A stretch of DNA of 37,452 nt from a virus, in UHGV virus genome UHGV-1371557. One strand, given 5' to 3'. This document shows positions 1,458 through 37,405 of the stretch, one piece after another. The notes beneath the pieces were generated by a model that saw nothing but the letters and a program-made list of their open reading frames with translations, was not told the DNA's origin and did not search any database. Made by a program: the position numbers and the translations under genes. Position 1 is the first letter of the stretch, and each line of letters opens with the position of its first letter.

Positions 1458-1476
1458 GTTGTGTCGTATTTTATTG

Positions 1477-1512
1477 TAAAACCATTTCGTTGAAGCCAAC
1501 GAAATGGTTTTA
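1477..1512. terminator. Perfect 15-bp inverted repeat (AAAACCATTTCGTTG / CAACGAAATGGTTTT) with a 4-nt loop, flanked by A/T runs. Candidate bidirectional terminator or protein-binding palindrome between int and the upstream gene.
   Basis: Read directly from the sequence at 1478-1492 and 1497-1511. The A4 and T4 tracts are part of the stem ends, so it could terminate on either strand. Confidence 0.5.
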
Positions 1513-3617: not shown

Positions 3618-4574
3618 TTAGAACCTGCGCTTTATGAGCTCTTCTACGTAGAAGATGCCCTGCACATCATCGAGCTTCACTGAATAGTCCTTGTATTGGC
3701 TATTGAGCGAATGGCACGTGATCTCGTTGGTTGCCTTGTCGTGGTTTACAACCTCCTTGAGGACTATACCCTCAGCTTCGGTGGCCACGACGCAGTAGGT
3801 GTCTCGTCTGCGCTTTATGCCATACTGCCAGTCGCTTTTAGGAAGGACACGGCAGAGAAGCACGTCACCATCGAGAAACGCTGTACTGGTGCCGTCGTCC
3901 ATACTGTCGCCAGACACTTCAAAGAGCAGGTAATCTCCTTTCAGTCTCTTGTCGATCAGCACAGGCATCGTCTGTTTGTCCTCTTCCCAGCATGGATCTC
4001 CGAAGCCAGATAGTGCTCCTGCTTTCGCGCGGTGTGGCACAAGAGGTATCTCCACCCAATCGCGGTCGCTACTTACGAGTGGGCGTGCGCTGTTCTCTGG
4101 GGAGGGCTGCGTGATGGGTGTATCGGCTTTCAGCATACTGCCTTCGCCAGTATCAAGCCATACTACATTAAGCGATGGGTAGGCTTTCTGTATCTTCTCT
4201 TTTGCGTCACGCCCGATACCTCGGCTAAGTCCAGAGATAAAAGAAGCCGATAATCCAGCCTTCAACAGGAAGTCACGAACAGAGGTAGCCTCGTTGGTTG
4301 CCTCTATATACTGAGTTATGCGTGATTTAATCGCATCTTTTGCTCCTATATCATCGGACAACATCATGTTTCCTTCTCCCGTAAGCAGCCACGATGCGGA
4401 GATGCCAAACATTTCGCTCCACTTAGCCGCCTGCGCCTTACCAAATGCCTTCTTACCCGTCATTAGAGAGTTGACATAAGCCTTGCTAACCCCGAGTTTC
4501 TCTGCGATGGCGCTCTGCGTAACGCCTTTGCTTCTGAAATATTCCGACAGATCAGAAAAAATTTTTTCGCTCAT
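3618..4574 (-). CDS. CI/LexA-like repressor: tandem XRE-type HTH domains plus a C-terminal S24 peptidase domain
   Basis: HTH 1: SAIAEKLGVSKAYVNSLMTGKK. HTH 2: SASFISGLSRGIGRD...WLDTGEG. S24 motifs: VSGDSM and a downstream Lys. The ORF-track N-terminal extension to 4808 was rejected. The start was set at the ATG at 4572-4574 (MSEKIF...). Confidence 0.85.
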   Translation of the reverse strand: MSEKIFSDLSEYFRSKGVTQSAIAEKLGVSKAYVNSLMTGKKAFGKAQAAKWSEMFGISASWLLTGEGNMMLSDDIGAKDAIKSRITQYIEATNEATSVRDFLLKAGLSASFISGLSRGIGRDAKEKIQKAYPSLNVVWLDTGEGSMLKADTPITQPSPENSARPLVSSDRDWVEIPLVPHRAKAGALSGFGDPCWEEDKQTMPVLIDKRLKGDYLLFEVSGDSMDDGTSTAFLDGDVLLCRVLPKSDWQYGIKRRRDTYCVVATEAEGIVLKEVVNHDKATNEITCHSLNSQYKDYSVKLDDVQGIFYVEELIKRRF

Positions 4575-4630
4575 AAGATGCAGTATTACAGCGTCTTGCA
4601 AAATAATTAATCCAAAAAGGCTGACGTTGA

Positions 4631-4662
4631 TTTGGTAAGTCAACCAAATTGGTTTACCTTTG
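4631..4662 (+). promoter_or_regulatory. Candidate Bacteroidetes sigma-A promoter (TTTG-N20-TACCTTTG) for the Cro-like/early-right transcript, inside a divergent operator region
   Basis: TTTG at 4631-4634 and TAccTTTG at 4655-4662 with a 20-nt spacer. Inverted repeats read from the sequence: GTTGA...TCAAC (4625-4643), CTTCAA-AG-TTGAAG (about 4696-4709) and CAAAATTTG. Confidence 0.5.
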
Positions 4663-4749
4663 TAGTGTAGTTCAAGAGGAGCTACAACAAACGCTTCAAA
4701 GTTGAAGCAAAATTTGAAACAAAGATAAAGATAATCTACCACCTGCAAT

Positions 4750-4965
4750 ATGGCTGAAATAAGAGTTCCTAAGAGCCACTCCGAAAAGTTAGATGAGCGC
4801 GCTCTCAAGATGCAGGCCGATTACCTGCGACTCCTGTCACAAGGCGGGGGAATTTGGCAGGTAAAGAAAGCCCTTGCCAAAAAATACAAGGTGTGTATGG
4901 TGACAGTCTACAGCACGCTCAAGCGAGCTGAGGAACTGAACGCAACCACCTCTGCCGAAGGCTAA
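4750..4965 (+). CDS. Cro-like small HTH regulator
   Basis: 71-aa ORF divergent from the repressor. Helix-turn-helix-like segment IWQVKKALAKKYKVCMVTVYSTLKRA. Confidence 0.55.
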   Translation: MAEIRVPKSHSEKLDERALKMQADYLRLLSQGGGIWQVKKALAKKYKVCMVTVYSTLKRAEELNATTSAEG

Positions 4966-6513: not shown

Positions 6514-6740
6514 AGAAGATAGACCGACGCGAGGTGATAGGAGCGATACAGCGACACCTCCAGCTACGCAAGGAAGAAAGACGGCTGCCGCTGATCGTAC
6601 TTAAAGAGCAACTATCCTCGGTAGTCGGCTATGGCTTCGATACTCTCCGCCCTATCCTGCTGGACCTCTATCAAGAAGGTCTACTGATCTCTGGGCGCAC
6701 ACTCAATTCTACCTACTTCACACTCCCAGAATATGTGTAA
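6510..6740 (+). CDS. Hypothetical protein, possibly a winged-helix DNA binder
   Basis: 76-aa ORF whose start overlaps the previous stop and whose end overlaps the next start. Confidence 0.5.
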   Translation: MKKIDRREVIGAIQRHLQLRKEERRLPLIVLKEQLSSVVGYGFDTLRPILLDLYQEGLLISGRTLNSTYFTLPEYV

Positions 6741-8004
6741 GCATAAATACATACCACTCGACATCTTCGCCATGCAGGACGCTAAGATAGAAGCACTGAC
6801 TGCAGAGCATGGGATGGCGGGCTGGGGCATCTACACCGCCCTCCTCCTAAAGCTCGCACAGCAAGATGAAGATGGGTACACTTATCCAAACAACGCCAAG
6901 CGCCTGGCGAACATCCTGCCAAAGCGCCCAAGGGCGGAAGTCGTGCGATCCACTATTGAGGACTTCGGTCTGTTTGAGATCGCCACCGATGAGGATGGAG
7001 TAGAGTACTTCTACTCACCACGCCTCACCTCACATCTCTCAACTCTTGGCGGTGCAGATAAAAAGCAAGGCGAAGAAGCTGCACCGAAGAAGCGCAGCTA
7101 CAATGTAAGTCAAGCGGTCAAAGAAGGCTTAGATAGAGCTCGCGAGGCTAAGCGCAATCGCTCAAAAGTAGAAGATGAAAGTAGAAAAGTAGAGAGCAAA
7201 GTAGAAACGAAAGTAGAGACAAAAGCAGTCAAAAGTAGAAAAGTAGAGAAAGCAGAAATGAAAGTAGACGAAAGTAGAGAAGGCGTTTCTACTTTGCCCT
7301 CTACTTTCAGCTCTACTTTGGGGGGGACTATAGGGGGGGTAAATACCCCCCTAAAAGAAAAAGATAAAATAGAAGATGAAAGTCTCCCCCAAACCCCCAG
7401 GGGGGGCTTTGAGAGCGCGCAGAAAGAAATAGATGCGATAGAGGACCCTGCGCTTCGCGCTATGGTTAGCTCGCTAATGTATCCGAACTCAGATATGCGA
7501 GACTTCGGTAAGGTGTGGCGAGCACTCTATGAAGAGGCGACTGCTGGTGATGATGGCTTCGCTAAGTCAAGCATCCTATCGCAGGCCATATGTAGAGACG
7601 GGCATGAGCTGTTTGTTGCGCTGATGCCCGACCGACCAGATGGGAATGCCAAGGAGCGTCCCACGGTGGCGACCACACTAAACGCAATAGCCCAATTCCG
7701 AAAGATGATGGAAGAAGCCAAGGCATCCACCTTCCTACGAGGCAATCGAGCCATGGCGAGTCTGTCGTGGCTTGTCAAGCCAGATAACTTCGCTAAGGTC
7801 GTGGAGGGGTGCTATCGAGACAACACTGCCTCCAAGCCGTCATCTCCTCCTCCTGCATCCCAGAACTACTCAAACCATATGTGGGATGAAGTCAAGGCTT
7901 CGCAGGCGCAGGCCGAAGATAGCGAGGAGATGAAGGCATACAAGGCTTCTGTACTCAAGATAACACGAAGAGAAGGCGAACAGCAAAAAAAACAACAGCA
8001 ATGA
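6733..8004 (+). CDS. Replication initiator/replisome organiser (N-terminal phage-replication-initiator-like domain; iterons lie inside the coding sequence)
   Basis: 423-aa ORF. The N-terminus (IPLDIFAMQDAKIEALTAEHGMAGWGIYTALLLKLAQ) resembles phage replication initiator N-domains. It contains the iteron array, and its stop overlaps the start of the DnaC-like loader gene. Confidence 0.7.
   Translation: MCKHKYIPLDIFAMQDAKIEALTAEHGMAGWGIYTALLLKLAQQDEDGYTYPNNAKRLANILPKRPRAEVVRSTIEDFGLFEIATDEDGVEYFYSPRLTSHLSTLGGADKKQGEEAAPKKRSYNVSQAVKEGLDRAREAKRNRSKVEDESRKVESKVETKVETKAVKSRKVEKAEMKVDESREGVSTLPSTFSSTLGGTIGGVNTPLKEKDKIEDESLPQTPRGGFESAQKEIDAIEDPALRAMVSSLMYPNSDMRDFGKVWRALYEEATAGDDGFAKSSILSQAICRDGHELFVALMPDRPDGNAKERPTVATTLNAIAQFRKMMEEAKASTFLRGNRAMASLSWLVKPDNFAKVVEGCYRDNTASKPSSPPPASQNYSNHMWDEVKASQAQAEDSEEMKAYKASVLKITRREGEQQKKQQQ
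7166..7406. repeat. Candidate origin of replication: at least 9 direct AAGTAGA iterons (7166-7278), 3 inverted TCTACTT copies (7288-7318), then G7/C6 inverted runs flanking a 32-nt A-rich tract (7320-7406)
   Basis: Iteron start positions are 7166, 7179, 7187, 7199, 7211, 7233, 7241, 7262 and 7272, mostly 8-13 nt apart. The inverted copies are at 7288, 7300 and 7312. Next come GGGGGGG-ACTATA-GGGGGGG-TAAATA-CCCCCC, an AT-rich stretch, CCCCC-AAA-CCCCC-A-GGGGGGG. The whole array stays in frame within the initiator gene. Confidence 0.7.
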
Positions 8005-8765
8005 TTAACGAGCAACCACAGCCAAAAGAGGGTGCGCTTCCACTCGCCTCGGAGTTTGTCAAGAAGATCAAAGAGGAGCGGACGGCAGGCCTACCGCCAC
8101 GATCGGTCTATGATGCGTACCGAGGTATAAAACTTGATGATGCGCTGGACTATATCACAGAGCTTGGCAAGCTGAGGGAGGAGCGATTTTCTCTTGACAA
8201 TGATACTCTGGCTCTCGGATATGCAAAAGCGGTTTCTTGGCTACTCGCCCTGCCACATCCAGAGATAGACGACCCGATGAAGGGGCTTATCGTAACAGGC
8301 GAGACTGGTACAGGTAAGACGCTTCTTGTGACTCTACTGCGAGACCTTAGTGAAATGCTTGGTGTACAGCGACCATTCTACGACGGTGTGAATAGCCGAC
8401 GAACTATGAAGCCCTTCCTGTGGAATGGTGAGACGCACGCCCTTTGGCATATGGCGGATCTTATGGACAGTACAGATGGCAGGTACACCGCCCTGGACTA
8501 TCGGGTGCTTCACATAGGTGACCTCGGTAGTGAGCCTGTCACCTTCCAGCGCTATGGGAACAAGGCGAGTCTGGCGGACCTCATAAACCAGCGATCCGAC
8601 TATGGGTATCGAGACGCACCGATCGTCGCTACCACAAACCTCCCATGGGCTGAACTTCAACGCTACGGAGACCGTGCGGTATCTCGCCTTCGTGGCGACT
8701 GCATCGAGGTACGGCTCGTAGGAGTGCCAGACCACAGAATGAACAGAACGAAAACGAGTATTTAA
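8001..8765 (+). CDS. DnaC/IstB-like helicase-loader ATPase
   Basis: Walker A GETGTGKT, Walker B-like LHIGDLG, and a C-terminal segment ATTNLPWAELQ... typical of DnaC/IstB. The start ATG overlaps the initiator stop (ATGA). Confidence 0.8.
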   Translation: MINEQPQPKEGALPLASEFVKKIKEERTAGLPPRSVYDAYRGIKLDDALDYITELGKLREERFSLDNDTLALGYAKAVSWLLALPHPEIDDPMKGLIVTGETGTGKTLLVTLLRDLSEMLGVQRPFYDGVNSRRTMKPFLWNGETHALWHMADLMDSTDGRYTALDYRVLHIGDLGSEPVTFQRYGNKASLADLINQRSDYGYRDAPIVATTNLPWAELQRYGDRAVSRLRGDCIEVRLVGVPDHRMNRTKTSI

Positions 8766-21334: not shown

Positions 21335-21742
21335 ATGACGCAAGAAGAAACCGCATGCTTCCTAAGAGATGGGCTAAAGGCCCTCGGCGCATACTCCCCA
21401 GCGTTTGAGCCGCTAATATCGGCCACAGCGCAGATGGCTGGCGTATGTCGGGAGTCTTATGCGGTGCTGATGTCTGATGGCATAGTAGTCACAGAGACCA
21501 GTCGTGAGGGTGATTCACGCAAGCGAGCTAATCCTGCATGGTCCATCTTTATTGAAGCATCCAAGGAACTCCGCGCACAGCTTTCCGAGCTTCAGATGAC
21601 CGTACGAACTGCGAAGTTCACAAGCGGTGACGAGGTAGACAAGCTCAACCACATACTCCAGCAGATATATGACGAAACAACTAAGTCAAAGCGAAGCGAC
21701 AGCACTGAAAAGCGGGGTCGTAGAGCGGCTGCGAAGCGCTAA
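21335..21742 (+). CDS. terS: Terminase small subunit, P27 family
   Basis: Pattern AYSPAFEPLI...VCRESYAVLMSDGIVV...RKRANPAWSIFIEASKELRAQLSELQMT fits P27-type TerS. It lies immediately upstream of terL. Start at the ATG at 21335. Confidence 0.7.
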   Translation: MTQEETACFLRDGLKALGAYSPAFEPLISATAQMAGVCRESYAVLMSDGIVVTETSREGDSRKRANPAWSIFIEASKELRAQLSELQMTVRTAKFTSGDEVDKLNHILQQIYDETTKSKRSDSTEKRGRRAAAKR

Positions 21743-23408
21743 GATACCATACCCACGCTTCAACAAGCTCGACAAGCGTCTATCGTCGTATATACGCGAG
21801 TGCATCAAGCATCCAAGCCTGCACAACGTGTATGAGCTTCTGTCTATTGAGCGCTTCCTGCATAAGGTGGACAAGTATGTGCTTCGAGACGAGAAGGTGC
21901 GTCACTTCATCACGTTCTACGAAAATATCCGCCTCCCGTCTGCCGAGGGTATGGTGTTCTTCGCGCTTACCCCCGTGCAGGTCTTCCAGTTCGCCAATAT
22001 CTTTTGGTTCTACCACGAGGACGGAGAAAGGCGACTTGTTCGTGATGTCCTTCTTTTCGTGCCACGTAAGTTCAGCAAGACGACTTCTATTGCTACGCTC
22101 TCGGTGTATGACCTCCTCTATGGTGATGCCAACGCAGAGAGCTACGTGGGTAGTAATAGTTACCAGCAGTCAAGAGTGTGTTTCGATGTAATCTCTAAGA
22201 TACTCCGTGCGCTTGACCCAGCTCTTAGGCGCTTTAAAATCAACAGAGAGCAGGTGTACAATCGCATACCTGGAAAAATGTCTATCGCACGCTGTCTGTC
22301 GTCTGCGGCTGACCGCTTGGATGGTCTGAATGCTTCACTGGTGATCATAGACGAGTATGCGCAGGCGGACAATGATGCGCTAAAGAGTGTTCTCACCTCC
22401 TCGATGGGTGCGAGAAAGAATCCCCTAACGGTGGTAATCACAACCGCCAGCGACAAGCTCGATACGCCTTTTACGGAGATGCTGGATGCCTATAAGTCTA
22501 TCCTCCGCGGAGAGGTGGAGAATGATAGCATCTTTGCCCACATTTTTGAGCCCGATGTAGATGACGAGGAGGGCGACCCTAATACGTGGCACAAGGTACA
22601 GCCTCACTTAGGCGTAACGGTGCGCCCTGAATACTACGAAGCGGAGTACAAGAAAGCCCAGCTCACGGCAGGGGATATGAAGGCATTCCGCAACAAGCTC
22701 CTCAATATCTTCGCTCGAGACGAGCGTGAGATGTGGATACCTCGTGAGACGATTGAAAAGGCGTTCATGCACGTACCTATGGAGTCGCTTCGTGGCTATC
22801 GGGCTATGTGCGCTGTGGACTTGTCCGTCCGTGATGACTTTAGCGCGCTTACGTTCCTTGTCTACACGCCCAGTCGTGTTCCCGAGGGGCGCACCAAAGT
22901 ATGCCCGTTCCACGCTATCACACATTACTTCTTCCCAGAGGGTATGCTCGCCACGCACGTAAACCGAGAGCTTTACAAGCGGTGGGCGGATGACGGATAT
23001 CTGACGCTCTGTAAGGGCGACAGCATCGATTATCCTCTCATCGTGGATACTATTCTCCGACAGCCTCTCTCTACCCTGAAAATAGGATACGACCCATATA
23101 AGGCACTCGAGTTCACGAACCTCTTGCGGTCTACTCCGCAGGTAGGTAAGGGTAATCTTGAGGCTATTCCGCAAACCAATGGCTCGTTCAATACGGCTGT
23201 GATGTCGTTTGAGCTGGCTCTGTCGCAGGATAGCATCACGTTTGACCCTAATCCTATCACGGCATACTGCTTTGGCAATGCTGTGATAGACGAGGACCGC
23301 CTCGAAAACCGCAAGCCCGTCAAGGCTGTGGCTTCGGACAAGATTGACGGAGCTATCACGTGCCTAATGGGCTTTTGGCTGTTTAACCACTTCAAAACTA
23401 TCGTATAA
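21669..23408 (+). CDS. terL: Terminase large subunit
   Basis: 579 aa. Deviant Walker A VPRKFSKTTS and Walker B LVIIDEYAQ. Its start overlaps the 3' end of terS. Confidence 0.9.
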   Translation: MTKQLSQSEATALKSGVVERLRSAKIPYPRFNKLDKRLSSYIRECIKHPSLHNVYELLSIERFLHKVDKYVLRDEKVRHFITFYENIRLPSAEGMVFFALTPVQVFQFANIFWFYHEDGERRLVRDVLLFVPRKFSKTTSIATLSVYDLLYGDANAESYVGSNSYQQSRVCFDVISKILRALDPALRRFKINREQVYNRIPGKMSIARCLSSAADRLDGLNASLVIIDEYAQADNDALKSVLTSSMGARKNPLTVVITTASDKLDTPFTEMLDAYKSILRGEVENDSIFAHIFEPDVDDEEGDPNTWHKVQPHLGVTVRPEYYEAEYKKAQLTAGDMKAFRNKLLNIFARDEREMWIPRETIEKAFMHVPMESLRGYRAMCAVDLSVRDDFSALTFLVYTPSRVPEGRTKVCPFHAITHYFFPEGMLATHVNRELYKRWADDGYLTLCKGDSIDYPLIVDTILRQPLSTLKIGYDPYKALEFTNLLRSTPQVGKGNLEAIPQTNGSFNTAVMSFELALSQDSITFDPNPITAYCFGNAVIDEDRLENRKPVKAVASDKIDGAITCLMGFWLFNHFKTIV

Positions 23409-28118: not shown

Positions 28119-28646
28119 ATGGCAACTCAAACACCTCCAAACCCCAAGTACGACAAGAACAGGGATCTCGTCAGAGGCGAGTCAAACGGCATGTTCATTG
28201 CTGGGCTGTTCGTTCCCTACGTAAAGAAGGATGATTTCAAATTCGCACCACAGACTATCGAAATCTCCAGCAAGATGTCTGGGAAGAGTCCTGATAAGCT
28301 CGGGGGTCGCAACGACTGGTCCGCCTCTATCGAAGCGTACGTGTCGAACTCCCCAGGGCATCTGTCCTACAACGCTCTCGAAAACCTTGCCGCATCGGGC
28401 AAGGCTGTTTCGTTCGAGATCTGCGAGGTAACCATCGCGGAAGATTCGGCAGGTCCTCGCACTGTAACCAAGGGTGCGGCTCTCCGCAAGGGTATGGTAA
28501 CTATCTCCGACCTTAGCAAGAGCAGTACGGGCGGTGAGTACGAGACCTTTACCTGCACGCTCAACGGATCTGGTCCTCTCAAGGACAAGTCGGATAAGGA
28601 AATCGGCAGTACCGAAGCGATTACCGCCGCAGGGATTACCTTCTAA
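28119..28646 (+). CDS. Major tail protein
   Basis: 175 aa, immediately upstream of the chaperone and tape measure. Confidence 0.65.
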   Translation: MATQTPPNPKYDKNRDLVRGESNGMFIAGLFVPYVKKDDFKFAPQTIEISSKMSGKSPDKLGGRNDWSASIEAYVSNSPGHLSYNALENLAASGKAVSFEICEVTIAEDSAGPRTVTKGAALRKGMVTISDLSKSSTGGEYETFTCTLNGSGPLKDKSDKEIGSTEAITAAGITF

Positions 28647-32200: not shown

Positions 32201-33697
32201 GCACTTGACAAGGTTGCCACCCAGTATAGGGAGAAGCTCGCATCGCTTCTTGGTGAGAAGGCCCTCAACGACCAGCAGTACAACAGCCTAAAGACGCATC
32301 TGCTTGTAGAAAGGGAGGTAACTGAGGAGAAGGCGAGAAGTGCAGCGGAACTCAAACTGATCACAGCGCAGGTGAAATATGGCCTTGCTACGGAGGATGA
32401 TCTGCGCAGAGCTAAGGCGGAGCGTGCGAAGGCCGAGCTGAACGCAACCATAAAGGCGCATGGTGAGCTTGATCTAAACGATGAGTATGTCAAGGCTAAG
32501 ATGAGCGAGATAGACGCTGTCTCCGATATTGCAAGCCTACAACGCAACTACGCTGACGAAGCGAAGAAGCTGGAGAAAGCACGAGAGGAGGGCAGGCTCA
32601 AGGAGAATGAGTACGCAGAATCTCTCGCTAAGCTCATATCCTCTACTCGTGAGCGAGCCAACCAGACCACTACGACCACCGATGGGCAGGAAAAGCTCAA
32701 AAAGGAGCTGGGCGAAAAGCTCTCCAACGACCTCTCCTCTATCGCTAAGTCCGCTACCCCAGTCAAGGGCGTGCGTGACACGAGCTACGACTACAAGAAG
32801 GACGAAGCCACGAAGCTCGGTGAGGAGAAGCAGCTTATGGAGGACTACGTGCGCCAGCTGCAGGAGGCTGAAAAGGCTGGGCTGGATGTTGCTGAGGCTC
32901 TCAAGCAGGCTCAGAAAGAGACCAAGACCCTCGACCAAGCTATCAAGGTGGCGACTATTCAGTCCGACTTGAAGAAGTACCGAGAGGCGGTCAAAGATCA
33001 ATCGTTTTCGGGCTTGAAGTCCGTGGCACAGAGCGCTCGCCACCTCAAGAGCGCATTCAGCGAGTTGCAAAAGGCGTTCGACCCCGATGCGCAGGCCTCA
33101 GCGTGGGAGCGCTTCTTTGCGGTGTTTGACTCTGCAACGCAGGGCATCGACACTATCCTCTCTCTTGTGAAGATGATAGAGGGGCTTACGCAGGCCCGAC
33201 AGGTGGCGGCAGCAGCCGAGCAGGCTCTCACGGCACAGCAGGTTGCAGGTCGAACGCTTGTGACCACCACGGAGGCGACATCTACCGCCACGGAGTTAGG
33301 TCTTACGACGGCGCGTATAGCGGCTACGCAGGCCGAGACCTCTGCTGACACTGTTGGGGCGGCTGCTAAGGCTGCTAAGGCTCACGCGGGCATCCCATTT
33401 GTCGGTGTGGCTCTTGCTGCGGTTGCTGTTGGCGGTCTAATAGCACTCATTTCGTCTTCGGCTAAGAAGATACCGAAGTTCGCCAATGGTGGTATCGTGC
33501 CAGGTGGTGATGGCTCTGGCGACCGAGTTCTCGCTCGAGTCAATCCTGGCGAGCTGATACTTAACAAGGCGCAGCAGGGCAGACTTGCCAATCACTTGAC
33601 CTCCGCAGCGTCTATCCGAGTGGAGGTAGAGGGTAAGATACGCGCTAAGGATATTCTGCAGCTAAGTAGTGTAGCTGCTCGACATAAAACACGATAA
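29285..33697 (+). CDS. Tail tape measure protein (1470 aa)
   Basis: Very long, Ala/Glu/Lys-rich, coiled-coil throughout. Hydrophobic segments in the middle and at the C-terminus. Confidence 0.9.
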   Translation: MANNLSFSVRLELLADKFKQQAESAKASLRGIQFQALAMAGALGAGVTSISSFISSLVNTTREAGRARVVLRNISTDTREYARSLKFLAELTDKYGTDLIGTTEAFAKFKAAATPAGIAMAEQERIFSNISKAMASFGISGGEAALTMMAITQMMSKGKISSEELRRQLGERMPVAMQAMANAAGVSMSQLDKLLKEGKLRSAEIMGKFSDELAKLSGDTSTDNLESSLGRLKNSFTSLADSLHVYDNFKALIEKVKDLLDYLRTHLSNLYIWAGGLLGARLWSKFSTTWNQAGAAIKASQAQAIADEAAAKESAKRAKLEAQKALAEAQQQLQRAEAAVQAAGTITEKEKKRLEVAKYTGDVRFQKAVDNFSNAQTEKRTLLNEHQALLRGMQRSEEEAAQRVANAKLALQRANDEAAAKIIAKQEQIERAKDERVAAAKRALEAATAPKDVKAATSALNKADRYTSEEQKAIRDLQREQAAIVSKSQREYDKAIADQSRLQLANITKREREEARLAGKLEQNARALAATGDALNKANHNRRELLAEARAKNEEARIKRLAALQASADKAHYNIGGRATNLPSSSASVAGVLNTQRAISNAGNLSFRPASEIIAEQTKAASTTVSLWARATTTVKLAWASTLATIRGLMATIAPMAIIAGITAIVTALADWYRKQKEINGLQNEYLAKQREIKSTRSDEEVQISRLFSLYQSLDGKLEEQKTVQHQLEKSLGLQEGSLDRIAGKYDRIKNVVSKILKLKEIDRQIDFYSETAKTNKKPLQDLYGAYLKKGGKSLSADDMERVGKVLAKSFSLSVAQRNGYLKGFTYDKDVRTSTDNQYELGKLKGIYKELFGTDASREAKRFIVSILEEGKTYQTFRDVSASQLVANDAEVKTEELHVKRIKIDGEAQGEVKSIGGSFAGGGGVSSSSDDDSKKSKKKSELQRTREAAAKELNELHNQRAAGIISEEEYRLALDKVATQYREKLASLLGEKALNDQQYNSLKTHLLVEREVTEEKARSAAELKLITAQVKYGLATEDDLRRAKAERAKAELNATIKAHGELDLNDEYVKAKMSEIDAVSDIASLQRNYADEAKKLEKAREEGRLKENEYAESLAKLISSTRERANQTTTTTDGQEKLKKELGEKLSNDLSSIAKSATPVKGVRDTSYDYKKDEATKLGEEKQLMEDYVRQLQEAEKAGLDVAEALKQAQKETKTLDQAIKVATIQSDLKKYREAVKDQSFSGLKSVAQSARHLKSAFSELQKAFDPDAQASAWERFFAVFDSATQGIDTILSLVKMIEGLTQARQVAAAAEQALTAQQVAGRTLVTTTEATSTATELGLTTARIAATQAETSADTVGAAAKAAKAHAGIPFVGVALAAVAVGGLIALISSSAKKIPKFANGGIVPGGDGSGDRVLARVNPGELILNKAQQGRLANHLTSAASIRVEVEGKIRAKDILQLSSVAARHKTR

Positions 33698-33716
33698 CCA
33701 ACCAAAACCAAAGACT

Positions 33717-34163
33717 ATGTTTAAATTCTTTTCCCCCGAAGAGGCGTATGAGACGGCGACGCTGATGGCGGTAGCCATGCTCATCGTATTGGCCGCCGTG
33801 ATCGTCGACACGATCACAGGCATAATGAGAGCGAAGCGTAACAAGCAGGTGATCCAGTCGAGCATCGCGCGCCGTGTCTTCGGCAAGCTCATCAGGTACT
33901 ACCTCGTCATCGCCATATTCGCGTTCATCGACGTCCTTCTGTTCATAATCGACTTCGAGGTGCGCATATCGATCCCCGAGCTTCCCTATATGACTGTCTT
34001 TGCGTCGATCGGGGCAGTCGCCACGGAGGGCTGGAGCGTTTGGGAAAACCTCCCCAAGCACGATACTACCTCGATCAAGAACAGCGCCAAACAGACGCAG
34101 GAGCTGGCAAAGGAGCTGGCAAAGGCGCTGAATGAAGTCCGTAACCTCGCAAAAGCAGAATAG
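33717..34163 (+). CDS. Holin (phage-holin-4-like; D-x-ITG motif)
   Basis: 148 aa. TM segments and DTITGIMRAKRNKQVIQSSIARRVFGKLIRY, typical of LL-H/Bacillus-type holins. The endolysin gene is adjacent. Confidence 0.6.
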   Translation: MFKFFSPEEAYETATLMAVAMLIVLAAVIVDTITGIMRAKRNKQVIQSSIARRVFGKLIRYYLVIAIFAFIDVLLFIIDFEVRISIPELPYMTVFASIGAVATEGWSVWENLPKHDTTSIKNSAKQTQELAKELAKALNEVRNLAKAE

Positions 34164-34166
34164 ACT

Positions 34167-34607
34167 ATGAGCAAGTATTTCACCCTCGAGGAGCTGACGC
34201 GAAGCCAAACGGCCGCGCGCCTCGGAAAAGACAACACCCCCAACGCCACGCAGAAGCGCGACCTCCTGCGACTGATTGACTACCTCGACGGCATCCGCGA
34301 GGAGTTCGGAGAGCCCATCAAGGTGACCTCGGGCTTCCGAAGCTGGGACGTAAACCACGCCGTCGGTGGCGTGAAGAAGAGCCAGCATCTCGCTGGGCAG
34401 GCTGCTGACATCGTACCAGCGAAGAGACCAGAGCGTCTTCGCGATCTGTTCGACATCATCCGCAAGCGCGGAGGCTTCCAGCAGGTCATCTACGAGCGAA
34501 AGGGGCAGAGCATGTGGGTACACGTAGCCATACCTCCGCTCGGCGAAATGCCACGGCAGGAGGCGATGACGACGAACGACGGCAAGAACTTCACCCGACT
34601 AAAGTAA
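34167..34607 (+). CDS. Endolysin, peptidase M15 family (zinc D-Ala-D-Ala carboxypeptidase-like)
   Basis: Pattern SGFRSWDVNHAVGGVKKSQHLAGQAADIV, with H...D zinc ligands. Confidence 0.8.
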   Translation: MSKYFTLEELTRSQTAARLGKDNTPNATQKRDLLRLIDYLDGIREEFGEPIKVTSGFRSWDVNHAVGGVKKSQHLAGQAADIVPAKRPERLRDLFDIIRKRGGFQQVIYERKGQSMWVHVAIPPLGEMPRQEAMTTNDGKNFTRLK

Positions 34608-34683
34608 CTAACACAGCAGGGCGGGCGGTAATGGGGTGACCGCCTGCGCCTGCAACCAACCACCCCGACCAAAACATAACTAT

Positions 34684-36318
34684 ATGCGACCATTTGGAAG
34701 TAAGAGCGACGGCAAGGCGCTCCAGCTTGTGCAAAGAGGTACGGACAAACGCATACCCGTGGAGCTGGTCAAACAGCCCTCGGGCGAGGTCTTAGACCCT
34801 GCAGAGCTGGAAGGACTGCACGTGATGGTGTCAAGCGAGAGCGGAGGTATGGCCACCATACCCTACTCCGTAGAAGACGGCAAGCTGGTGGTGGAGGTGA
34901 CGGCAGACATCTCCCGACAGCTGGGGCTGGGGGTCTACACGATGACCGCAACGGGGCGCATTCCCGACCCTGCGTATGCTGATGGCTACCACGACTACGA
35001 GATAGTAGTAGACCTCTGTAAGGTCACGAAGTATGGAAGCAACGAGACGCCCGTAAAGGTGCAGGCTAACGTGCTGGAGGGCTTGCGAGGTGAGAAGGGA
35101 GAGAGAGGAGAAAAGGGCGACCCTGGCGAACGTGGAGAGCAAGGCGCCCAGGGCATTCAAGGTGTCCAAGGGGAGCGCGGTCTGCAAGGCACCCAAGGAG
35201 TCCAAGGAGTCCAAGGAGTCCAAGGAGAGCGCGGGGCTGACGGTGCGGTAGGTAAGTCCGCCTATCAGTCCTATCTCGAGACGACCACCGACAACCCCAA
35301 GCTCACAGAGGCGCAGTATGCAGCAATCAACGCCATCACGACCCAATACCTCTATCGAATAAACAAAGGAAAGGATGCACCGATGAACGAACAAACCCTA
35401 TCGGCAGACCAGCTCATGGAGCTTGACAGCCACCGACGCAACATAATCAACGCCCTGCGAGCTAAGGGTGCACAGGTCACCGACGACGACGGTCTGGAGG
35501 TGCTGGAGGCGAAGATCGCGGCGCTATCATACAGCAAGATCACCGTTATCAGGGAGCAGCAGTTCTCGGACTGGCAGGACGATGTTTACCCACCAATGGT
35601 GGTAAGCGATACCTTCCGTCCTGTTAGTCTGAAAAATATGTTCGCACAAAACCCACGCCTCTCGCAACTGCCCGTTGTTGAGGGCGTCGAGAAAGCGCTG
35701 TATATCGACAGATACGCACAGCGTTGCCCGTCGCTTCGCTCGGTTGAACTCCCCGATCTTCTCGAGGTTAAAACGGCGACAACGATGTTTGATGGGTGCA
35801 CCTCGATGACCAAGGCGACAATAGGAGCCCTTCCTGCACTCACAAACGCAACGTGGCTCTTCAGTAACTGCCAGTCGCTCACGTCTGCCACCATTGGCTC
35901 AGCACCAAAGCTGGAGATCGCTCAAGGCCTCTTCAACAACTGTACCTCCCTGCAGAGCGTCACGCTTGATCTTTCGGGTGGGCTAATAACAAATGCATCA
36001 TACCTGTTCAATGGATGCGAAAAGCTGCGCTCAGTGAATGGCGTTATCGACCTGTCAAGGACGACAAATGTAGCCTCGGCGTTTAGTGGCTGTACGTCAC
36101 TCGAGGATGTGCGCATCAAGGGGATTAAGGTGAGCATTGACCTCTCCGCGTGTGCCAACCTCTCGCTGGAGAGCGTGAAGCACATTGTCGAGAATGCCCA
36201 AAGTGCAACGAACAAGACTATCACCCTACACAGCTCGCTCGTAGACAAGTATGACGACGAGCTTGTGACGCTCGGAGAGACAGCCACCTCGAAGGGGTGG
36301 ACAATCAATTATCGCTAA
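34684..36318 (+). CDS. Tail fibre/receptor-binding protein with a collagen-like Gly-X-Y region and C-terminal BspA-type leucine-rich repeats
   Basis: GEKGERGEKGDPGERGEQGAQGIQGVQGERGLQGTQGVQGVQGVQGERGADGA, then repeated units of about 20 aa (CTSLQSVTL, CEKLRSVNG, CTSLEDVRI). The ORF-track start is a GTG; the ATG at 34684 was used. Confidence 0.75.
   Translation: MRPFGSKSDGKALQLVQRGTDKRIPVELVKQPSGEVLDPAELEGLHVMVSSESGGMATIPYSVEDGKLVVEVTADISRQLGLGVYTMTATGRIPDPAYADGYHDYEIVVDLCKVTKYGSNETPVKVQANVLEGLRGEKGERGEKGDPGERGEQGAQGIQGVQGERGLQGTQGVQGVQGVQGERGADGAVGKSAYQSYLETTTDNPKLTEAQYAAINAITTQYLYRINKGKDAPMNEQTLSADQLMELDSHRRNIINALRAKGAQVTDDDGLEVLEAKIAALSYSKITVIREQQFSDWQDDVYPPMVVSDTFRPVSLKNMFAQNPRLSQLPVVEGVEKALYIDRYAQRCPSLRSVELPDLLEVKTATTMFDGCTSMTKATIGALPALTNATWLFSNCQSLTSATIGSAPKLEIAQGLFNNCTSLQSVTLDLSGGLITNASYLFNGCEKLRSVNGVIDLSRTTNVASAFSGCTSLEDVRIKGIKVSIDLSACANLSLESVKHIVENAQSATNKTITLHSSLVDKYDDELVTLGETATSKGWTINYR
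35193..35228 (+). repeat. Tandem 9-bp repeats (CCAAGGAGT, 3 perfect copies plus 1 variant) encoding GVQ triplets of the collagen-like region
   Basis: Read from the sequence. The repeats are in frame. Confidence 0.7.
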
Positions 36319-36338: not shown

Positions 36339-36536
36339 ATGGGAAAGTCAGTAAGAATTAAAGCCCCAAAGGGCAAGATGGTCGTATGCCGTGAGCGCCG
36401 AACGATCGGCAGGCTCGTCCGTACACGTGCGGAGGATGCACACCTCTATGAGCTAATGGACGAAGCGGAAGCTCTCGCTCTCGAGAAGCAGTGGAAGGAG
36501 GAGGACGAGGCTGAGGCTGGCGAGGCTCAGCCCTAA
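36339..36536 (+). CDS. Hypothetical small charged protein (65 aa)
   Basis: ATG start. Basic N-terminal half and acidic C-terminal half. Confidence 0.5.
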   Translation: MGKSVRIKAPKGKMVVCRERRTIGRLVRTRAEDAHLYELMDEAEALALEKQWKEEDEAEAGEAQP

Positions 36537-36541: not shown

Positions 36542-36566
36542 TGCGCCCCACCGTCGGCAGGGCGCA
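36542..36566 (-). terminator. Hairpin TGCGCCC / GGGCGCA (7 bp, 11-nt loop). On the minus strand it is followed by CUUAUUUA. Terminator candidate for a short leftward transcript.
   Basis: Read from the sequence. The plus strand has no U-tract after it. Confidence 0.4.
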
Positions 36567-36645
36567 TGAGAGGAAGGGGCTGGATAGGATTTATCATGAG
36601 TACGAAATCTGAAAGCCAATCTCCAGCTCCAGCTCCTCTCTCCTA

Positions 36646-36676
36646 CAAAGGTAGCAAGCTGTGGCTATCTATCAAA
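36646..36676 (-). promoter_or_regulatory. Consensus Bacteroidetes promoter (TTTG-N19-TACCTTTG) on the minus strand, firing leftward into the 36537-36640 intergenic region
   Basis: Plus-strand CAAAGGTA at 36646-36653 and CAAA at 36673-36676. Confidence 0.5.
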
Positions 36677-36695
36677 GACTTAACACAGATTTACG

Positions 36696-37136
36696 ATGAA
36701 AACAAATAGACTAAGCTGGTGGGAGACGCTTCTTGTGGCCGTAGCCGTTGCACTGCTGGGCTACTTCCTGACCTCCTGCTCACCGAAGGTGCGGGTCGTC
36801 CCCGTAGAGCGGACGAGGGTAGAGTGGAGAGACCGCTGGCGTTTGGACAGCGTGTATGTCCACGATAGCATCTACCTAACCGAGCGTATGGCGGGAGATA
36901 CCATCTACAAGGTCAAAGAGGTGTACCGCTGGCGTGACCGCTGGCGGGTGGATACCATCAATACTGGGCGAGTAGATAGCGTACGCATCACCGAGGTGGT
37001 GGAAGTCCCCGCCAAGCTGACTGCGTGGCAGGATATGCGCCTCAAAGCGTTTGCGCCACTCCTCGCTATTGCGTTGCTTTTGGGTGCGTGGGTGTCACGC
37101 AGGCTGTGGCTACCGCTCCTTCGTGGGCTGCTATAG
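36696..37136 (+). CDS. Lipoprotein with a C-terminal TM helix; candidate unimolecular spanin (T1 gp11-like architecture)
   Basis: Signal peptide with lipobox LTSC (MKTNRLSWWETLLVAVAVALLGYFLTSCSP). Internal repeat RVEWRDRWRLDSVYVHDS / YRWRDRWRVDTINTGRVDS. C-terminal hydrophobic helix FAPLLAIALLLGAWVSRRLWLPLL. Confidence 0.6.
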   Translation: MKTNRLSWWETLLVAVAVALLGYFLTSCSPKVRVVPVERTRVEWRDRWRLDSVYVHDSIYLTERMAGDTIYKVKEVYRWRDRWRVDTINTGRVDSVRITEVVEVPAKLTAWQDMRLKAFAPLLAIALLLGAWVSRRLWLPLLRGLL

Positions 37137-37146
37137 CGTGGCATCA

Positions 37147-37166
37147 TTTTCGTGACCTCACGAAAA
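37147..37166. repeat. Perfect 9-bp inverted repeat TTTTCGTGA-CC-TCACGAAAA, 10 nt after the stop of the lipoprotein gene
   Basis: Read from the sequence. Confidence 0.5.
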
Positions 37167-37179
37167 AGGTCTGCTGGTA

Positions 37180-37210
37180 TTTGGTGGTATCAAAAAATTG
37201 CCTACCTTTG
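37180..37210 (+). promoter_or_regulatory. Consensus Bacteroidetes promoter (TTTG-N19-TACCTTTG) on the plus strand near the right edge of the prophage
   Basis: TTTG at 37180-37183 and TAccTTTG at 37203-37210. The spacer contains GGTGGTATCAAAAAA, which resembles the GTGGTGTCAAAA motif found upstream of two late genes. Confidence 0.5.
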
Positions 37211-37216
37211 CTGTGT

Positions 37217-37359
37217 AGATGAGTGCACGCTTCTACATTGTCCACCCTTCTGGGTGCTGAATTTGAACGAGCTTATGCTCACAGATGTACGTGATTATTT
37301 TCGTAATCTCGCAACGTCAAACAAGGGCGGGGAGGTGAAAACCTCCTCGCCCTCTTTTT
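37217..37359 (+). ncRNA. Candidate small RNA of about 140 nt, delimited by the 37180-37210 promoter and the 37325-37359 terminator
   Basis: Promoter and terminator lie 110 nt apart. The only in-frame ATG (37220) gives a 13-aa peptide. The ORF-track ORF 37152-37427 runs through the terminator hairpin. Confidence 0.35.
37325..37359 (+). terminator. Textbook Rho-independent terminator: GGGCGGGGAGG-TGAAAA-CCTCCTCGCCC followed by TCTTTTT
   Basis: 11-bp stem with one G-U pair, a 6-nt loop, and a T-tract at 37353-37359. Confidence 0.7.
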
Positions 37360-37405
37360 GGGAGTTCTGCATAAAAACGTCCGTGAAAGCGTCCGATGTA
37401 AATAG

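What the first reader, a model, noticed from the sequence alone, without database searches (positions are those of the whole stretch)
36696..37136. Candidate unimolecular spanin encoded apart from holin and endolysin
The protein has a lipoprotein signal peptide with lipobox L-T-S-C and a single C-terminal transmembrane helix. That combination, an outer-membrane lipoprotein anchor plus an inner-membrane TMD, is what defines T1 gp11-type u-spanins. The periplasmic part has two copies of an Arg/Trp-rich repeat (WRDRWRLDSVYVHDS / WRDRWRVDTINTGRVDS). Holin (33717) and M15 endolysin (34167) are 2.5 kb upstream, with the tail-fibre gene in between. U-spanins are poorly catalogued in Bacteroidota phages, so this would complete a three-step lysis system by an unusual route.
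Basis: partly seen in the sequence, partly recalled or inferred. Interest (0 to 1): 0.6.

Follow-up and report, generated by a model that had tools for sequence, protein, structure and literature searches.

The report
Bacteroidales phage unimolecular spanin candidate
The last gene of this Bacteroidota prophage encodes a small protein anchored by lipid to the outer membrane and by a helix to the inner membrane, most likely a one-piece 'spanin' that breaks the outer membrane at lysis; it belongs to a very large, unnamed family that almost always sits next to phage cell-wall-degrading enzymes, including in crAss-like phages.

Summary
Window 36696-37136 (+) encodes a 146-aa protein with a lipoprotein signal (lipobox LTSC, Cys28), an ~88-residue periplasmic part with a real internal repeat, a C-terminal TMD (118-134) and a basic tail.

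The u-spanin reading is supported by comparison, not by experiment.
- The family is large: 1,092 clusters at 50% identity, none named, with no Pfam, PHROG or NCBIfam model.
- Both anchors are conserved: Cys28 is one of three invariant columns, and 140 of 150 representatives have both.
- Members abut or overlap unrelated cell-wall hydrolases (M15_3, Amidase_2, DUF5675/L,D-carboxypeptidase). This holds for MAG prophages, cultured Bacteroides phage Bacuni_F1 and two crAss-like phages.
- They occur with three different holin types.
- dN/dS is 0.10-0.21.
- No Bacteroidota surface-export signal follows the Cys.

There is no homology to T1 gp11 or to Flavobacterium phage 11b gp49 beyond the signal peptide, so this is an analogue, not a member of those sequence families.

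The separation from holin and endolysin is specific to this clade: a variable fibre-like gene is inserted into the cassette.

U-spanins in Bacteroidota phages are already in SpaninDB and a 2025 survey, so this is a new sequence family of a known kind. One point is unresolved: some lineages carry a neighbouring TM/coiled-coil protein that could be a holin or an i-spanin-like partner. The window has none.

The parts
36696..37136 (+). Candidate unimolecular spanin gene (146 aa plus stop), the last gene of the prophage late region
   Evidence: ORF; 291 close and 1,092 clustered relatives; dN/dS 0.10-0.21 against 14 relatives
36696..36779 (+). Lipoprotein signal peptide, residues 1-28, with lipobox LTSC; the Cys28 codon is 36777-36779
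   Evidence: Passes the PROSITE lipoprotein rule; Cys28 is invariant in 111 aligned sequences; 144 of 150 representatives have a lipobox-like Cys
36780..37046 (+). Periplasmic domain, residues 29-117, Arg/Val/Asp-rich, no Cys, with five D-[S/T]-hydrophobic units
   Evidence: AF2 strands 47-55 and 78-86 at low to moderate confidence
36825..36869 (+). Repeat copy 1, WRDRWRLDSVYVHDS (residues 44-58)
   Evidence: score 61, 0 of 2000 shuffles reach it
36930..36980 (+). Repeat copy 2, WRDRWRVDTINTGRVDS (residues 79-95)
37047..37097 (+). C-terminal transmembrane helix, residues 118-134 (AFAPLLAIALLLGAWVS)
   Evidence: Hydropathy; AF2 helix with pLDDT above 90; 146 of 150 representatives have a C-terminal TMD
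37098..37133 (+). Basic cytoplasmic tail, residues 135-146 (RRLWLPLLRGLL)
   Evidence: The tail after the TMD has net positive charge in 98.6% of family members
33717..34163 (+). Holin (Phage_holin_4_1)
   Evidence: PF05105 E=3.4e-11; phrog_199 holin
34167..34607 (+). Endolysin (Peptidase_M15_3), no signal sequence
   Evidence: PF08291 E=2.4e-22; phrog_894 endolysin E=1e-31
34636..36318 (+). Fibre-like protein with collagen and BspA-LRR domains, inserted between endolysin and candidate; its length varies among relatives
   Evidence: the endolysin-to-member distance is 980-2545 nt in the clade
36339..36536 (+). Conserved small acidic-tailed ORF (65 aa) of unknown function between the fibre-like gene and the candidate
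   Evidence: A similar ORF is present in L001, L030 and L059
37324..37363 (+). Intrinsic-terminator-like hairpin with T-run, closing the transcription unit about 190 nt after the candidate
   Evidence: 13-bp stem, 9 GC pairs; homology with many relatives ends just after it

Best explanation
The gene encodes a unimolecular spanin analogue, the outer-membrane-disruption component of this prophage's lysis system.

Steps shown here:
- The protein has a lipoprotein signal with Cys28 and a C-terminal TMD followed by a basic tail.
- Both features are conserved throughout a large family.
- The family is physically linked to endolysins and holins.

Steps inferred:
[quoted passage not shown] There is no surface-export signal and no Asp at +2.
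- The C-terminal helix stays in the inner membrane with its basic tail in the cytoplasm.
- The ~88-residue periplasmic segment therefore threads the peptidoglycan and tethers the two membranes. This segment is built from about five short D-[S/T]-hydrophobic beta-strand units arranged as an internal duplication.
- The gene is transcribed late, on the same strand as holin, endolysin and the fibre-like gene.
- When the holin releases the M15 endolysin and the murein is degraded, the tethers are freed to move and collapse. This brings the membranes together and ruptures or fuses the outer membrane, as proposed for T1 gp11.
For: Topology:
- The protein passes the lipobox rule and has a C-terminal TMD.
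- Cys28 is one of three invariant columns in 111 sequences, most of them only 26-41% identical to the window protein.
- 144 of 150 representatives have a lipobox Cys, 146 of 150 a C-terminal TMD, and 140 of 150 both.
- The post-TMD tail is positive in 98.6% of members, and the median periplasmic length is 90 residues.
- 122 of 143 members have no acidic residue at +2..+5 and none has two, so there is no surface-export signal.
- The window protein has no periplasmic Cys, and 103 of 140 relatives have none, as reported for u-spanins (PMC6139136).

Gene neighbourhood:
- 4-nt overlap with an M15_3 endolysin in L088-90.
- 4-nt overlap with an Amidase_2 in L092.
- Abutting an amidase in cultured phage Bacuni_F1.
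- Abutting DUF5675 in 23 of 23 Paludibacteraceae loci that have upstream sequence.
- Next to 'lysis regulatory protein/holin' and L,D-carboxypeptidase in the crAss-like cr116_1 and IAS virus.
- Next to an annotated holin in Dulem virus 40.
- In window-clade loci that extend far enough upstream, M15_3 is always found 1-2.5 kb upstream on the same strand, with Holin_4_1 beside it in all but a few of them.

Other points:
- The family is present in virulent crAss-like phages, which argues against a lysogenic-conversion role.
- dN/dS is 0.10-0.21.
- It is the only credible lipoprotein ORF in the window, and the window has no Rz-like i-spanin.
- Dimensions match T1 gp11: 133 aa, Cys22, TMD 102-129.
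- The same trio (TM/coiled-coil protein, endolysin, lipoprotein with C-terminal TMD) occurs in Flavobacterium phage 11b, which SpaninDB lists among its u-spanin singletons; gp49 is that phage's lipoprotein with a C-terminal TMD (PMC6139136).
Against: - There is no experimental evidence for any member.
- There is no sequence homology to a validated spanin: hhalign probability against T1 gp11 is 7%, restricted to the signal peptide.
- The AF2 model of the periplasmic part is weak (pLDDT 53-78, pTM 0.40) and finds no structural neighbour.
- SignalP, LipoP and TMHMM were not available. Topology rests on rule-based and hydropathy analysis plus conservation.
- In the window the gene lies 2.1 kb from the endolysin stop, at the prophage end, which is a typical moron position.
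- In at least 9 lineages a TM/coiled-coil protein with weak PHROG hits to Rz-like spanins (E=4e-7) accompanies the family, so in those phages it may not act alone.
- 2 of 111 members weakly hit the Cor exclusion-lipoprotein PHROG.
Confidence: 0.74

Rival explanations
1. The protein is the outer-membrane subunit of a two-part spanin whose partner is the TM/coiled-coil/CxxxxC protein found next to it in many phages. The lipoprotein's own C-terminal TMD would be an added anchor, and the coiled-coil protein would act as the i-spanin.
For: The TM/coiled-coil family co-occurs with the lipoprotein family in L085, L086, L088, L092, Bacuni_F1, cr116_1, IAS virus, bajarodcaudo virus and (as an analogue) phage 11b. 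It hits PHROG 'Rz-like spanin' families 312, 2466 and 739 at E=4e-7 to 2e-4. It has the N-terminal TMD, coiled coil and C-terminal Cys layout of i-spanins. Published annotation calls this family variously holin, spanin or lysis regulatory protein (10.1101/2021.08.26.457843).
Against: The window has no such protein (best E=0.13), and neither do about 50 loci of the window clade or 23 Paludibacteraceae loci, yet the lipoprotein keeps both anchors under purifying selection. Where the TM/coiled-coil protein is present, no Holin_4_1-family gene or 2-TMD holin-like ORF of the kind seen in the other clades was found in the cassette, although cr116_1 has an unclassified 161-aa multi-TMD ORF just upstream. 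Where it is absent, a Holin_4_1 or a 2-TMD holin-like gene is present. That pattern fits it being a holin. The endolysins in those cassettes lack signal sequences and so need a holin. Its acidic N-terminus and the basic cluster after its TMD suggest an N-out, C-in orientation, with the coiled coil in the cytoplasm. Its best PHROG hit is 'hol-like' (E=1e-9).
Confidence: 0.08
2. The protein is a lysogenic-conversion or superinfection-exclusion lipoprotein (Cor/Llp-like), or another moron product expressed from the prophage end, and is unrelated to lysis.
For: It is the last gene before the prophage boundary, separated from the lysis genes by a fibre-like gene. 2 of 111 family members hit phrog_1119 'Cor superinfection exclusion protein' at E about 8e-5.
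Against: There is no own-promoter or terminator pair setting it apart from the late genes on the + strand, though Bacteroidota promoters are not covered by that scan. Exclusion lipoproteins do not need a conserved C-terminal inner-membrane anchor. The family is translationally coupled to endolysins in many lineages and is present in virulent crAss-like phages. The window protein itself has no Cor hit. There is no surface-export signal.
Confidence: 0.05
3. The N-terminal segment is an uncleaved signal anchor, so the protein is a two-TMD inner-membrane protein with a periplasmic loop. It would act as a holin, antiholin or lysis-timing regulator rather than as a membrane tether.
For: It has two hydrophobic helices at the ends and sits in lysis cassettes. 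Lipidation was not tested.
Against: The invariant Cys lies exactly at the end of the h-region in a lipobox context in 144 of 150 members. A 90-residue structured periplasmic loop is atypical for holins. The window and other lineages already carry separate recognisable holins.
Confidence: 0.07

Closest known systems
Phage T1 gp11, the prototype unimolecular spanin (AAP49988.1; complementation of lambda Rz/Rz1 reported in PMC6139136 and PMID 30135120 as cited in the T1 record)
   Same: It has an N-terminal lipoprotein signal (LSGC against LTSC here), a periplasmic segment of about 80-90 residues described as beta-rich and lacking Cys, a C-terminal TMD with a basic tail, and similar overall size (133 against 146 aa). 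It is the last gene of its lysis cassette and is followed by a terminator.
   Different: There is no detectable homology outside the signal peptide (hhalign probability 7%). T1 gp11 has no D-[S/T] repeats. T1 uses a pinholin and a SAR endolysin directly adjacent, whereas here a canonical holin and a cytoplasmic M15 endolysin lie 2.1 kb upstream. The host is Enterobacteria rather than Bacteroidota.
SpaninDB u-spanins of Flavobacteriia phages, e.g. Flavobacterium phage 11b gp49 (CAH56676.1), the Cellulophaga phi13:2, phi12:1 and phi10:1 groups, FCL-2 and RAP44 (PMC6139136 Table 5)
   Same: The host phylum is Bacteroidota and the topology is the same. In 11b the cassette is the same trio of TM/coiled-coil protein (gp47, E=6.5e-6 to my HMM), endolysin (GH19) and lipoprotein with C-terminal TMD.
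   Different: The 11b gp49 periplasmic domain is Lys-rich and lacks the D-[S/T] repeat. The hhalign match covers only 22 signal/lipobox columns. The other SpaninDB members were not fetched or tested.
Lambda Rz/Rz1-type two-component spanins
   Same: The presumed role (tethering the inner and outer membranes through the murein and disrupting the outer membrane after endolysin action) and the outer-membrane lipoprotein anchor are the same.
   Different: This is one polypeptide carrying both anchors. It has a beta-type rather than coiled-coil periplasmic domain, no periplasmic Cys and no embedded or overlapping partner gene. No Rz-like gene is present in the window.
Cor/Llp superinfection-exclusion lipoproteins (phrog_1119)
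   Same: These are also small phage lipoproteins, often encoded near prophage ends.
   Different: They have no C-terminal TMD and are not linked to endolysins. Only 2 of 111 family members give a weak hit and the window protein gives none.

Membership tests
Unimolecular spanin (functional/topological class, Kongari et al. 2018, PMC6139136) | N-terminal outer-membrane lipoprotein signal with a lipobox Cys | tested here: met
   LTSC with Cys28 passes the PROSITE lipoprotein rule. The Cys is invariant across 111 sequences. There is no Asp at +2 and no acidic surface-export motif. Dedicated predictors and lipidation itself were not available.
Unimolecular spanin (functional/topological class, Kongari et al. 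2018, PMC6139136) | Single C-terminal transmembrane domain anchoring the protein in the inner membrane | tested here: met
   Hydrophobic 118-134, AF2 helix with pLDDT above 90, basic tail. 146 of 150 relatives have a C-terminal TMD, and the tail is positive in 98.6%.
Unimolecular spanin (functional/topological class, Kongari et al. 2018, PMC6139136) | Encoded in or with the lysis cassette (holin, endolysin) | tested here: met
   In the window the gene is on the same strand, 2.1 kb downstream of the endolysin, with no + strand terminator between the endolysin and the candidate's stop codon. In relatives it is adjacent to or overlaps M15_3, Amidase_2 or DUF5675 hydrolases.
Unimolecular spanin (functional/topological class, Kongari et al. 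2018, PMC6139136) | Periplasmic domain beta-rich and without Cys | tested here: inconclusive
   The window protein has no periplasmic Cys, and 103 of 140 relatives have none. AF2 shows two long strands but at pLDDT 53-78, so most of the domain is unassigned. The alternating D-S/T-hydrophobic pattern is compatible with strands.
Unimolecular spanin (functional/topological class, Kongari et al. 2018, PMC6139136) | Required for outer-membrane disruption; complements a lambda Rz/Rz1 defect | not testable with these tools
   This needs genetics and a lysis phenotype assay.
Unimolecular spanin (functional/topological class, Kongari et al. 2018, PMC6139136) | Host has an outer membrane | tested here: met
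   Host flanks of relatives carry SusC/SusD and OMP beta-barrel genes. Genome hits are Paludibacteraceae/Bacteroidales MAGs. Cultured relatives infect Bacteroides uniformis. The window's own host species was not identified.
T1 gp11 sequence family | Detectable sequence homology over the periplasmic domain (at least 40% identity over 40% of the length in SpaninDB) | tested here: not met
   hhalign of profile A1 against gp11 gives probability 7%, over 18 signal-peptide columns only.
Flavobacterium phage 11b gp49 u-spanin (SpaninDB singleton) | Sequence homology over the periplasmic domain | tested here: not met
   hhalign probability is 78% but over only 22 columns of signal peptide and lipobox. 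hmmsearch gives E=0.005.
o-spanin of a two-component spanin (Rz1-like) | Small outer-membrane lipoprotein without a TMD, paired with an adjacent, overlapping or embedding i-spanin gene | tested here: not met
   The protein has its own conserved C-terminal TMD. There is no i-spanin-like or TM/coiled-coil gene in the window.
Cor-type superinfection exclusion lipoprotein (phrog_1119) | Profile match to the family | tested here: not met
   The window protein has no hit at E<=1. Only 2 of 111 relatives match, at E about 8e-5.

The most novel reading that the evidence does not exclude
This D-[S/T]-repeat lipoprotein family is the principal outer-membrane-disruption device of gut Bacteroidales phages, crAss-like phages included. 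It would represent an independently evolved, beta-repeat membrane-fusion module. In many lineages it might work together with the neighbouring TM/coiled-coil/CxxxxC protein as a previously unrecognised hybrid spanin in which both partners are anchored in the inner membrane.
Probability: 0.15. Interest if true: 0.6.

Novelty: new member of a known kind. Interest (0 to 1): 0.4.

Why it matters
If correct, it names a family of over a thousand 50%-identity clusters that is currently blank in Pfam, PHROGs and NCBIfam. In GenBank the family is 'hypothetical' or mislabelled; Bacuni_F1's copy, for example, is annotated as an 'Arm DNA-binding domain protein'.

It would complete the three-step lysis cassette for many gut Bacteroidales prophages and some crAss-like phages. 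Bacuni_F1 and its Bacteroides uniformis host would be a tractable cultured system for testing it.

It would also add an independent, non-homologous example for asking how one-piece, non-coiled-coil spanins disrupt the outer membrane, which is still mechanistically unresolved even for T1 gp11.

The same neighbourhoods suggest that DUF5675 is an endolysin domain.

The concept itself is not new: u-spanins in Bacteroidota phages have been reported from sequence surveys.

Tried and rejected
- Pfam, PHROG and NCBIfam scans of the protein found nothing.
- A PHROG scan of all 111 aligned members gave only stray weak hits.
- A PDB profile search found nothing below E=0.2.
- A Foldseek search of the AF2 model against BFVD found nothing below E=0.1, and the model is too uncertain for fold matching. 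I ran no further search on it.
- Single-protein scans of viral contigs with P0198, P0144 and P0233 found nothing, and P0130 found only four weak loci.
- tblastn of the window protein against GenBank phages gave one unannotated hit, and P0130 gave none.
- My first crude gene caller missed the DUF5675 ORFs upstream of the Paludibacteraceae members, because longer antisense ORFs displaced them. An HMM scan of six-frame ORFs corrected this.
- BLASTP did not show DUF5675 to be related to the window's M15 endolysin. It is instead homologous to the crAss 'L,D-carboxypeptidase'.
- The 47-aa ORF 36566-36709 that overlaps the start is not called in relative L001, which has a 60-nt gap there, and it has no family hit, so I treated it as non-coding.
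- No direct repeat of 11 nt or more was found between the window ends, so the att sites were not identified.
- No tRNA gene is present in the window.
- I did not identify the host species.
Full report
**1. What is in the sequence**

Window 36696-37136 (+) is an ATG-initiated ORF of 146 codons. The ATG is the first start codon in the stop-to-stop frame.

The product reads MKTNRLSWWE-TLLVAVAVALLGYFLTSC-SPK.... It has these parts:
- A basic n-region.
- A 15-17-residue hydrophobic core.
- L-T-S-C with Cys at position 28. This satisfies the PROSITE prokaryotic lipoprotein rule.
- Residues 29-117, which are Arg/Val/Asp-rich and contain no Cys.
- Residues 118-134 (AFAPLLAIALLLGAWVS), which are strongly hydrophobic.
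- A tail, RRLWLPLLRGLL.

The only other window ORFs that pass the lipoprotein rule are antisense ORFs inside the tape-measure and endolysin genes.

Aligning the two halves of the periplasmic part scores 61. The shuffle mean is 21.7 (SD 4.7), and 0 of 2000 shuffles reach 61.

**2. The surroundings**

The window is a whole temperate phage genome:
- Tyrosine integrase at 108-1499 (-).
- Repressor-like gene at 3618-4808 (-).
- Replication genes at 6733-8765.
- Large terminase at 21669-23408.
- Major tail protein at 28119-28646.
- A 1470-aa tape-measure-like gene ending at 33697.

After that come the following genes, all on the + strand:
- Holin 33717-34163 (PF05105, E=3e-11).
- Endolysin 34167-34607 (Peptidase_M15_3, E=2e-22).
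- A 560-aa collagen/BspA-LRR protein, 34636-36318.
- A 65-aa ORF.
- The candidate.

No + strand terminator-like site lies between the endolysin and the candidate's stop codon. A strong one (13-bp stem plus T-run) follows at 37324-37353. Homology with many relatives stops just after that terminator. The candidate is therefore the last gene of the late region.

**3. The family**

- A word-indexed search found 291 relatives, all unnamed and from metagenomes.
- An exhaustive HMMER scan of 1.84 billion cluster representatives found 1,092 clusters at E<=1e-3, nearly all 120-180 aa and matched end to end.
- A profile search found 2,179 proteins.

Among the 150 best representatives, which are mostly 30-49% identical to the query:
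- 144 have a lipobox-type Cys, 146 have a C-terminal TMD and 140 have both. The exceptions are mostly truncated or mis-started calls, or sit just under my hydropathy cut-off.
- The residue after the Cys is S, K, T, R or G and never D.
- 122 of 143 have no acidic residue at +2..+5 and none has two. The Bacteroidota surface-export signal is therefore absent, and a periplasm-facing orientation is expected. The nature of that signal is from my own knowledge.

In a 111-sequence alignment only three columns are invariant: Cys28, Asp57 and Thr69. The consensus is ...L-x-S-C...V-x-V-E...Y-x-D-x4-D-S-x4-D-S-V-Y-x4-G-D-T-V-Y-x7-Y-R-D-R-x3-D-T-x6-D-S-x6-V-E-V..L-T-x-W-Q..TMD..R-K.

Further family properties:
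- The D-[S/T]-hydrophobic unit occurs 5.05 times per protein, against 0.42 expected from composition.
- The periplasmic segment has a median length of 90 residues.
- The tail after the TMD is net positive in 98.6% of members.
- dN/dS of the window gene against 14 relatives is 0.10-0.21.

This is a real protein under purifying selection, and its two membrane anchors are its best-conserved features.

**4. The neighbourhood test**

This is the decisive comparative evidence. Loci came from three routes: looking up divergent members on their contigs, scanning reference genomes, and querying GenBank phages. I then searched all six-frame ORFs of those loci with ad-hoc HMMs.

Members that overlap or abut a cell-wall hydrolase:

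| Locus or phage | Hydrolase | Arrangement |
|---|---|---|
| L088-L090 | M15_3 endolysin | 4-nt overlap |
| L092 | Amidase_2 endolysin | 4-nt overlap |
| L094 | M15_3 | 89 nt upstream of the member |
| Cultured Bacteroides phage Bacuni_F1 | Amidase | abutting; the member is mislabelled 'Arm DNA-binding domain protein' |
| 23 of 23 Paludibacteraceae/Bacteroidales MAG loci that have upstream sequence, plus L093 | DUF5675 | abutting |

Members within 0.5-1.5 kb of a hydrolase:

| Locus or phage | Nearby lysis genes |
|---|---|
| crAss-like cr116_1 and IAS virus (Steigviridae) | 'lysis regulatory protein/holin' and 'L,D-carboxypeptidase' |
| Bajarodcaudo virus 1 | DUF5675 |
| L085 | Amidase_2 with PG_binding_1 |
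| L086 | M15_3 |
| Dulem virus 40 | an Amidase_2-like gene upstream and an annotated holin immediately downstream |

DUF5675 is homologous to the crAss carboxypeptidase (E=2e-8 to 6e-35).

The family is thus linked to three unrelated hydrolase families. It is also linked to three holin types: Holin_4_1-like, a 61-68-aa two-TMD protein, and the TM/coiled-coil protein. That pattern indicates a functional link to lysis, not inheritance of one ancestral cassette. Its presence in virulent crAss-like phages argues against a lysogenic-conversion role.

In the window's own clade (L001, L029-L080) the order is always holin, endolysin, a fibre-like gene of 309-590 aa with a shared N-terminus and a variable C-terminus, an optional small ORF, then the member. 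The gap between endolysin and member is 980-2545 nt.

**5. Comparison with known spanins**

T1 gp11 (133 aa) has lipobox LSGC with Cys22, a TMD at 102-129 and a tail RKHEKKEA. Its layout and dimensions are the same as the candidate's. Profile comparison, however, gives 7% probability over 18 signal-peptide columns only.

SpaninDB (PMC6139136) already lists u-spanins from Bacteroidota (Flavobacteriia) phages: 11b, FCL-2, RAP44 and several Cellulophaga phages.
- In 11b, the lipoprotein with a C-terminal TMD (gp49) follows a GH19 endolysin.
- It is preceded by gp47, which matches my TM/coiled-coil HMM (E=6.5e-6). This is the same trio as in many of my loci.
- gp49 aligns with the family only over the signal peptide and lipobox.

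A 2025 survey states that Bacteroidetes phages exclusively use unimolecular spanins (PMC12596118). BV01 and P. gingivalis phages have bioinformatically assigned spanins.

So the kind is known, including in this phylum. This sequence family is not catalogued in Pfam, PHROGs v4 or NCBIfam, and its members in GenBank phage records are 'hypothetical' or mislabelled.

**6. Structure**

AF2 with the family alignment gives mean pLDDT 75.6 and pTM 0.40. It shows confident terminal helices (8-27 and 110-145) and two long strands (47-55 and 78-86) that coincide with the two repeat copies. The periplasmic part has pLDDT of only 53-78. Neither BFVD nor PDB sequence profiles give a neighbour. The model is compatible with a beta-type, possibly oligomeric or extended domain, but it proves little.

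**7. The unresolved complication**

In at least nine lineages a small protein accompanies the family. It has an N-terminal TMD, a coiled coil and a C-terminal CxxxxC motif.
- Its PHROG hits are split between 'hol-like' (E=1e-9) and 'Rz-like spanin' (E=4e-7).
- Published annotation is equally ambiguous.

If it were an i-spanin, the lipoprotein might be one half of a hybrid system. I consider this less likely, for four reasons:
- It is absent from the window (best E=0.13), from the window clade and from the Paludibacteraceae loci.
- Where it is present, no Holin_4_1-family gene or 2-TMD holin-like ORF was found in the cassette, although cr116_1 has an unclassified 161-aa multi-TMD ORF just upstream. 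The endolysins there lack signal sequences, so a holin is required.
- It alternates with Holin_4_1 and with a two-TMD holin-like gene.
- Its charge distribution suggests that the coiled coil is cytoplasmic. This last point is an inference.

**8. Verdict**

The best explanation, at about 0.74 confidence, is a one-piece spanin analogue. Cys28 would be lipid-anchored in the outer membrane and the helix 118-134 would sit in the inner membrane. The protein would act after the holin and the M15 endolysin.
- Shown: the sequence features, their conservation, purifying selection and linkage to lysis genes.
- Inferred: lipidation, sorting, spanning of the periplasm and the membrane-disruption step.

Novelty is a new sequence family of a known kind, and interest is moderate. 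The value lies in annotation: a very large blank family in gut Bacteroidales and some crAss-like phages. It also offers a second, non-homologous system for studying how u-spanins work, with Bacuni_F1 as a cultured entry point.

Noticed in passing
window 33697-33717; compare L001 2157-7042: The tape-measure-like gene is followed 20 nt later by the holin. Relative L001 has three further tail genes (164, 289 and 1166 aa) at that position. The same short junction occurs in independent contigs (L046, L050/L051, L068), so it is a real variant and not an assembly error. Where this phage encodes its distal tail and tip proteins is unclear.
   Followed up: partly
L088 7221-7589; L086 3749-4183; L085 4257-4823; L092 6536-6835; L097 3203-3553; L098 4360-4731; L099 4405-4776; L102 3371-3712; L101 27215-27652: A family of small proteins (N-terminal TMD, coiled coil, C-terminal CxxxxC) recurs in Bacteroidota phage lysis cassettes next to the lipoprotein family. 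Its PHROG hits are split between 'hol-like' and 'Rz-like spanin'. It is absent from the window. Whether it is a holin or an i-spanin-like protein is unresolved.
   Followed up: partly
L003-L027 (ORF abutting the member upstream); L015 7439-7873; L093 1-306; L098 4860-5339; L099 4878-5360; L102 4546-5019: DUF5675 (PF18925) sits in the position that M15 or amidase endolysins hold in other cassettes. It is homologous to the crAss 'L,D-carboxypeptidase/transpeptidase' (E=2e-8 to 6e-35). It is probably an endolysin domain that still carries a DUF name.
   Followed up: partly
L097 3959-4399 (MT635598 QMS42058.1); L103 2384-2899 (PP511379 XCD03597.1): These look like GenBank misannotations. Bacuni_F1's 'putative Arm DNA-binding domain protein' is a member of the lipoprotein/TMD family. 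Dulem virus 40's 'endodeoxyribonuclease' has an N-terminal region closely similar to the Amidase_2 endolysins (MRKINNIIVHC...GYHYVI).
   Followed up: partly
window 37146-37165: A perfect 9+9 palindrome, TTTTCGTGA-cc-TCACGAAAA, starts 10 nt after the candidate's stop codon, in a stretch that aligns at about 88-94% identity with many relatives. It has no T-run, so it may be a protein-binding site rather than a terminator.
   Followed up: no
window 37025-37222 (+), alternative frame: A GTG-initiated 65-aa Cys-rich ORF overlaps the 3' end of the candidate and runs past its stop codon. It stays open in several relatives (L030, L042, L050, L068). It is probably a by-product of nucleotide conservation and not a gene.
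   Followed up: no
window ~37359-37368: Similarity to many related phage contigs ends abruptly just after the terminator at 37324-37353, while a subset continues to the window end. This is a module or attachment-site boundary. No direct repeat of 11 nt or more is shared with the left end of the window, and no tRNA is present.
   Followed up: partly
L100 17380-17796 and 15801-16406 (Bacteroides phage B40-8): SpaninDB reports an i-spanin/o-spanin pair about 1 kb apart in B40-8. The only lipoprotein near the lysis genes, gp013, has C-G-D-D-S-D after its Cys. That resembles the Bacteroidota surface-export signal and would be odd for an o-spanin. gp011 (TMD plus coiled coil) contains RDSIIIRDSLVIDT, which is reminiscent of the family's repeats but not significant (hhalign probability 7%).
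   Followed up: partly
L005 7250-7435; L012 7345-7530; L020 5936-6142; L025 7348-7554; L006 2874-3089: The Paludibacteraceae cassettes carry a conserved 61-71-aa two-TMD protein (…LLVAGFVTPPVGEIHHSLLIAFGEILTFSGSLIGIDYKYRYKE) a few hundred nt upstream of DUF5675. It is a likely class II-type holin with no family assignment.
   Followed up: no
window 36339-36536: A 65-aa ORF with an acidic C-terminus (…DAHLYELMDEAEALALEKQWKEEDE) is conserved between the fibre-like gene and the candidate in relatives L001, L030 and L059. It has no family hit and its function is unknown.
   Followed up: no
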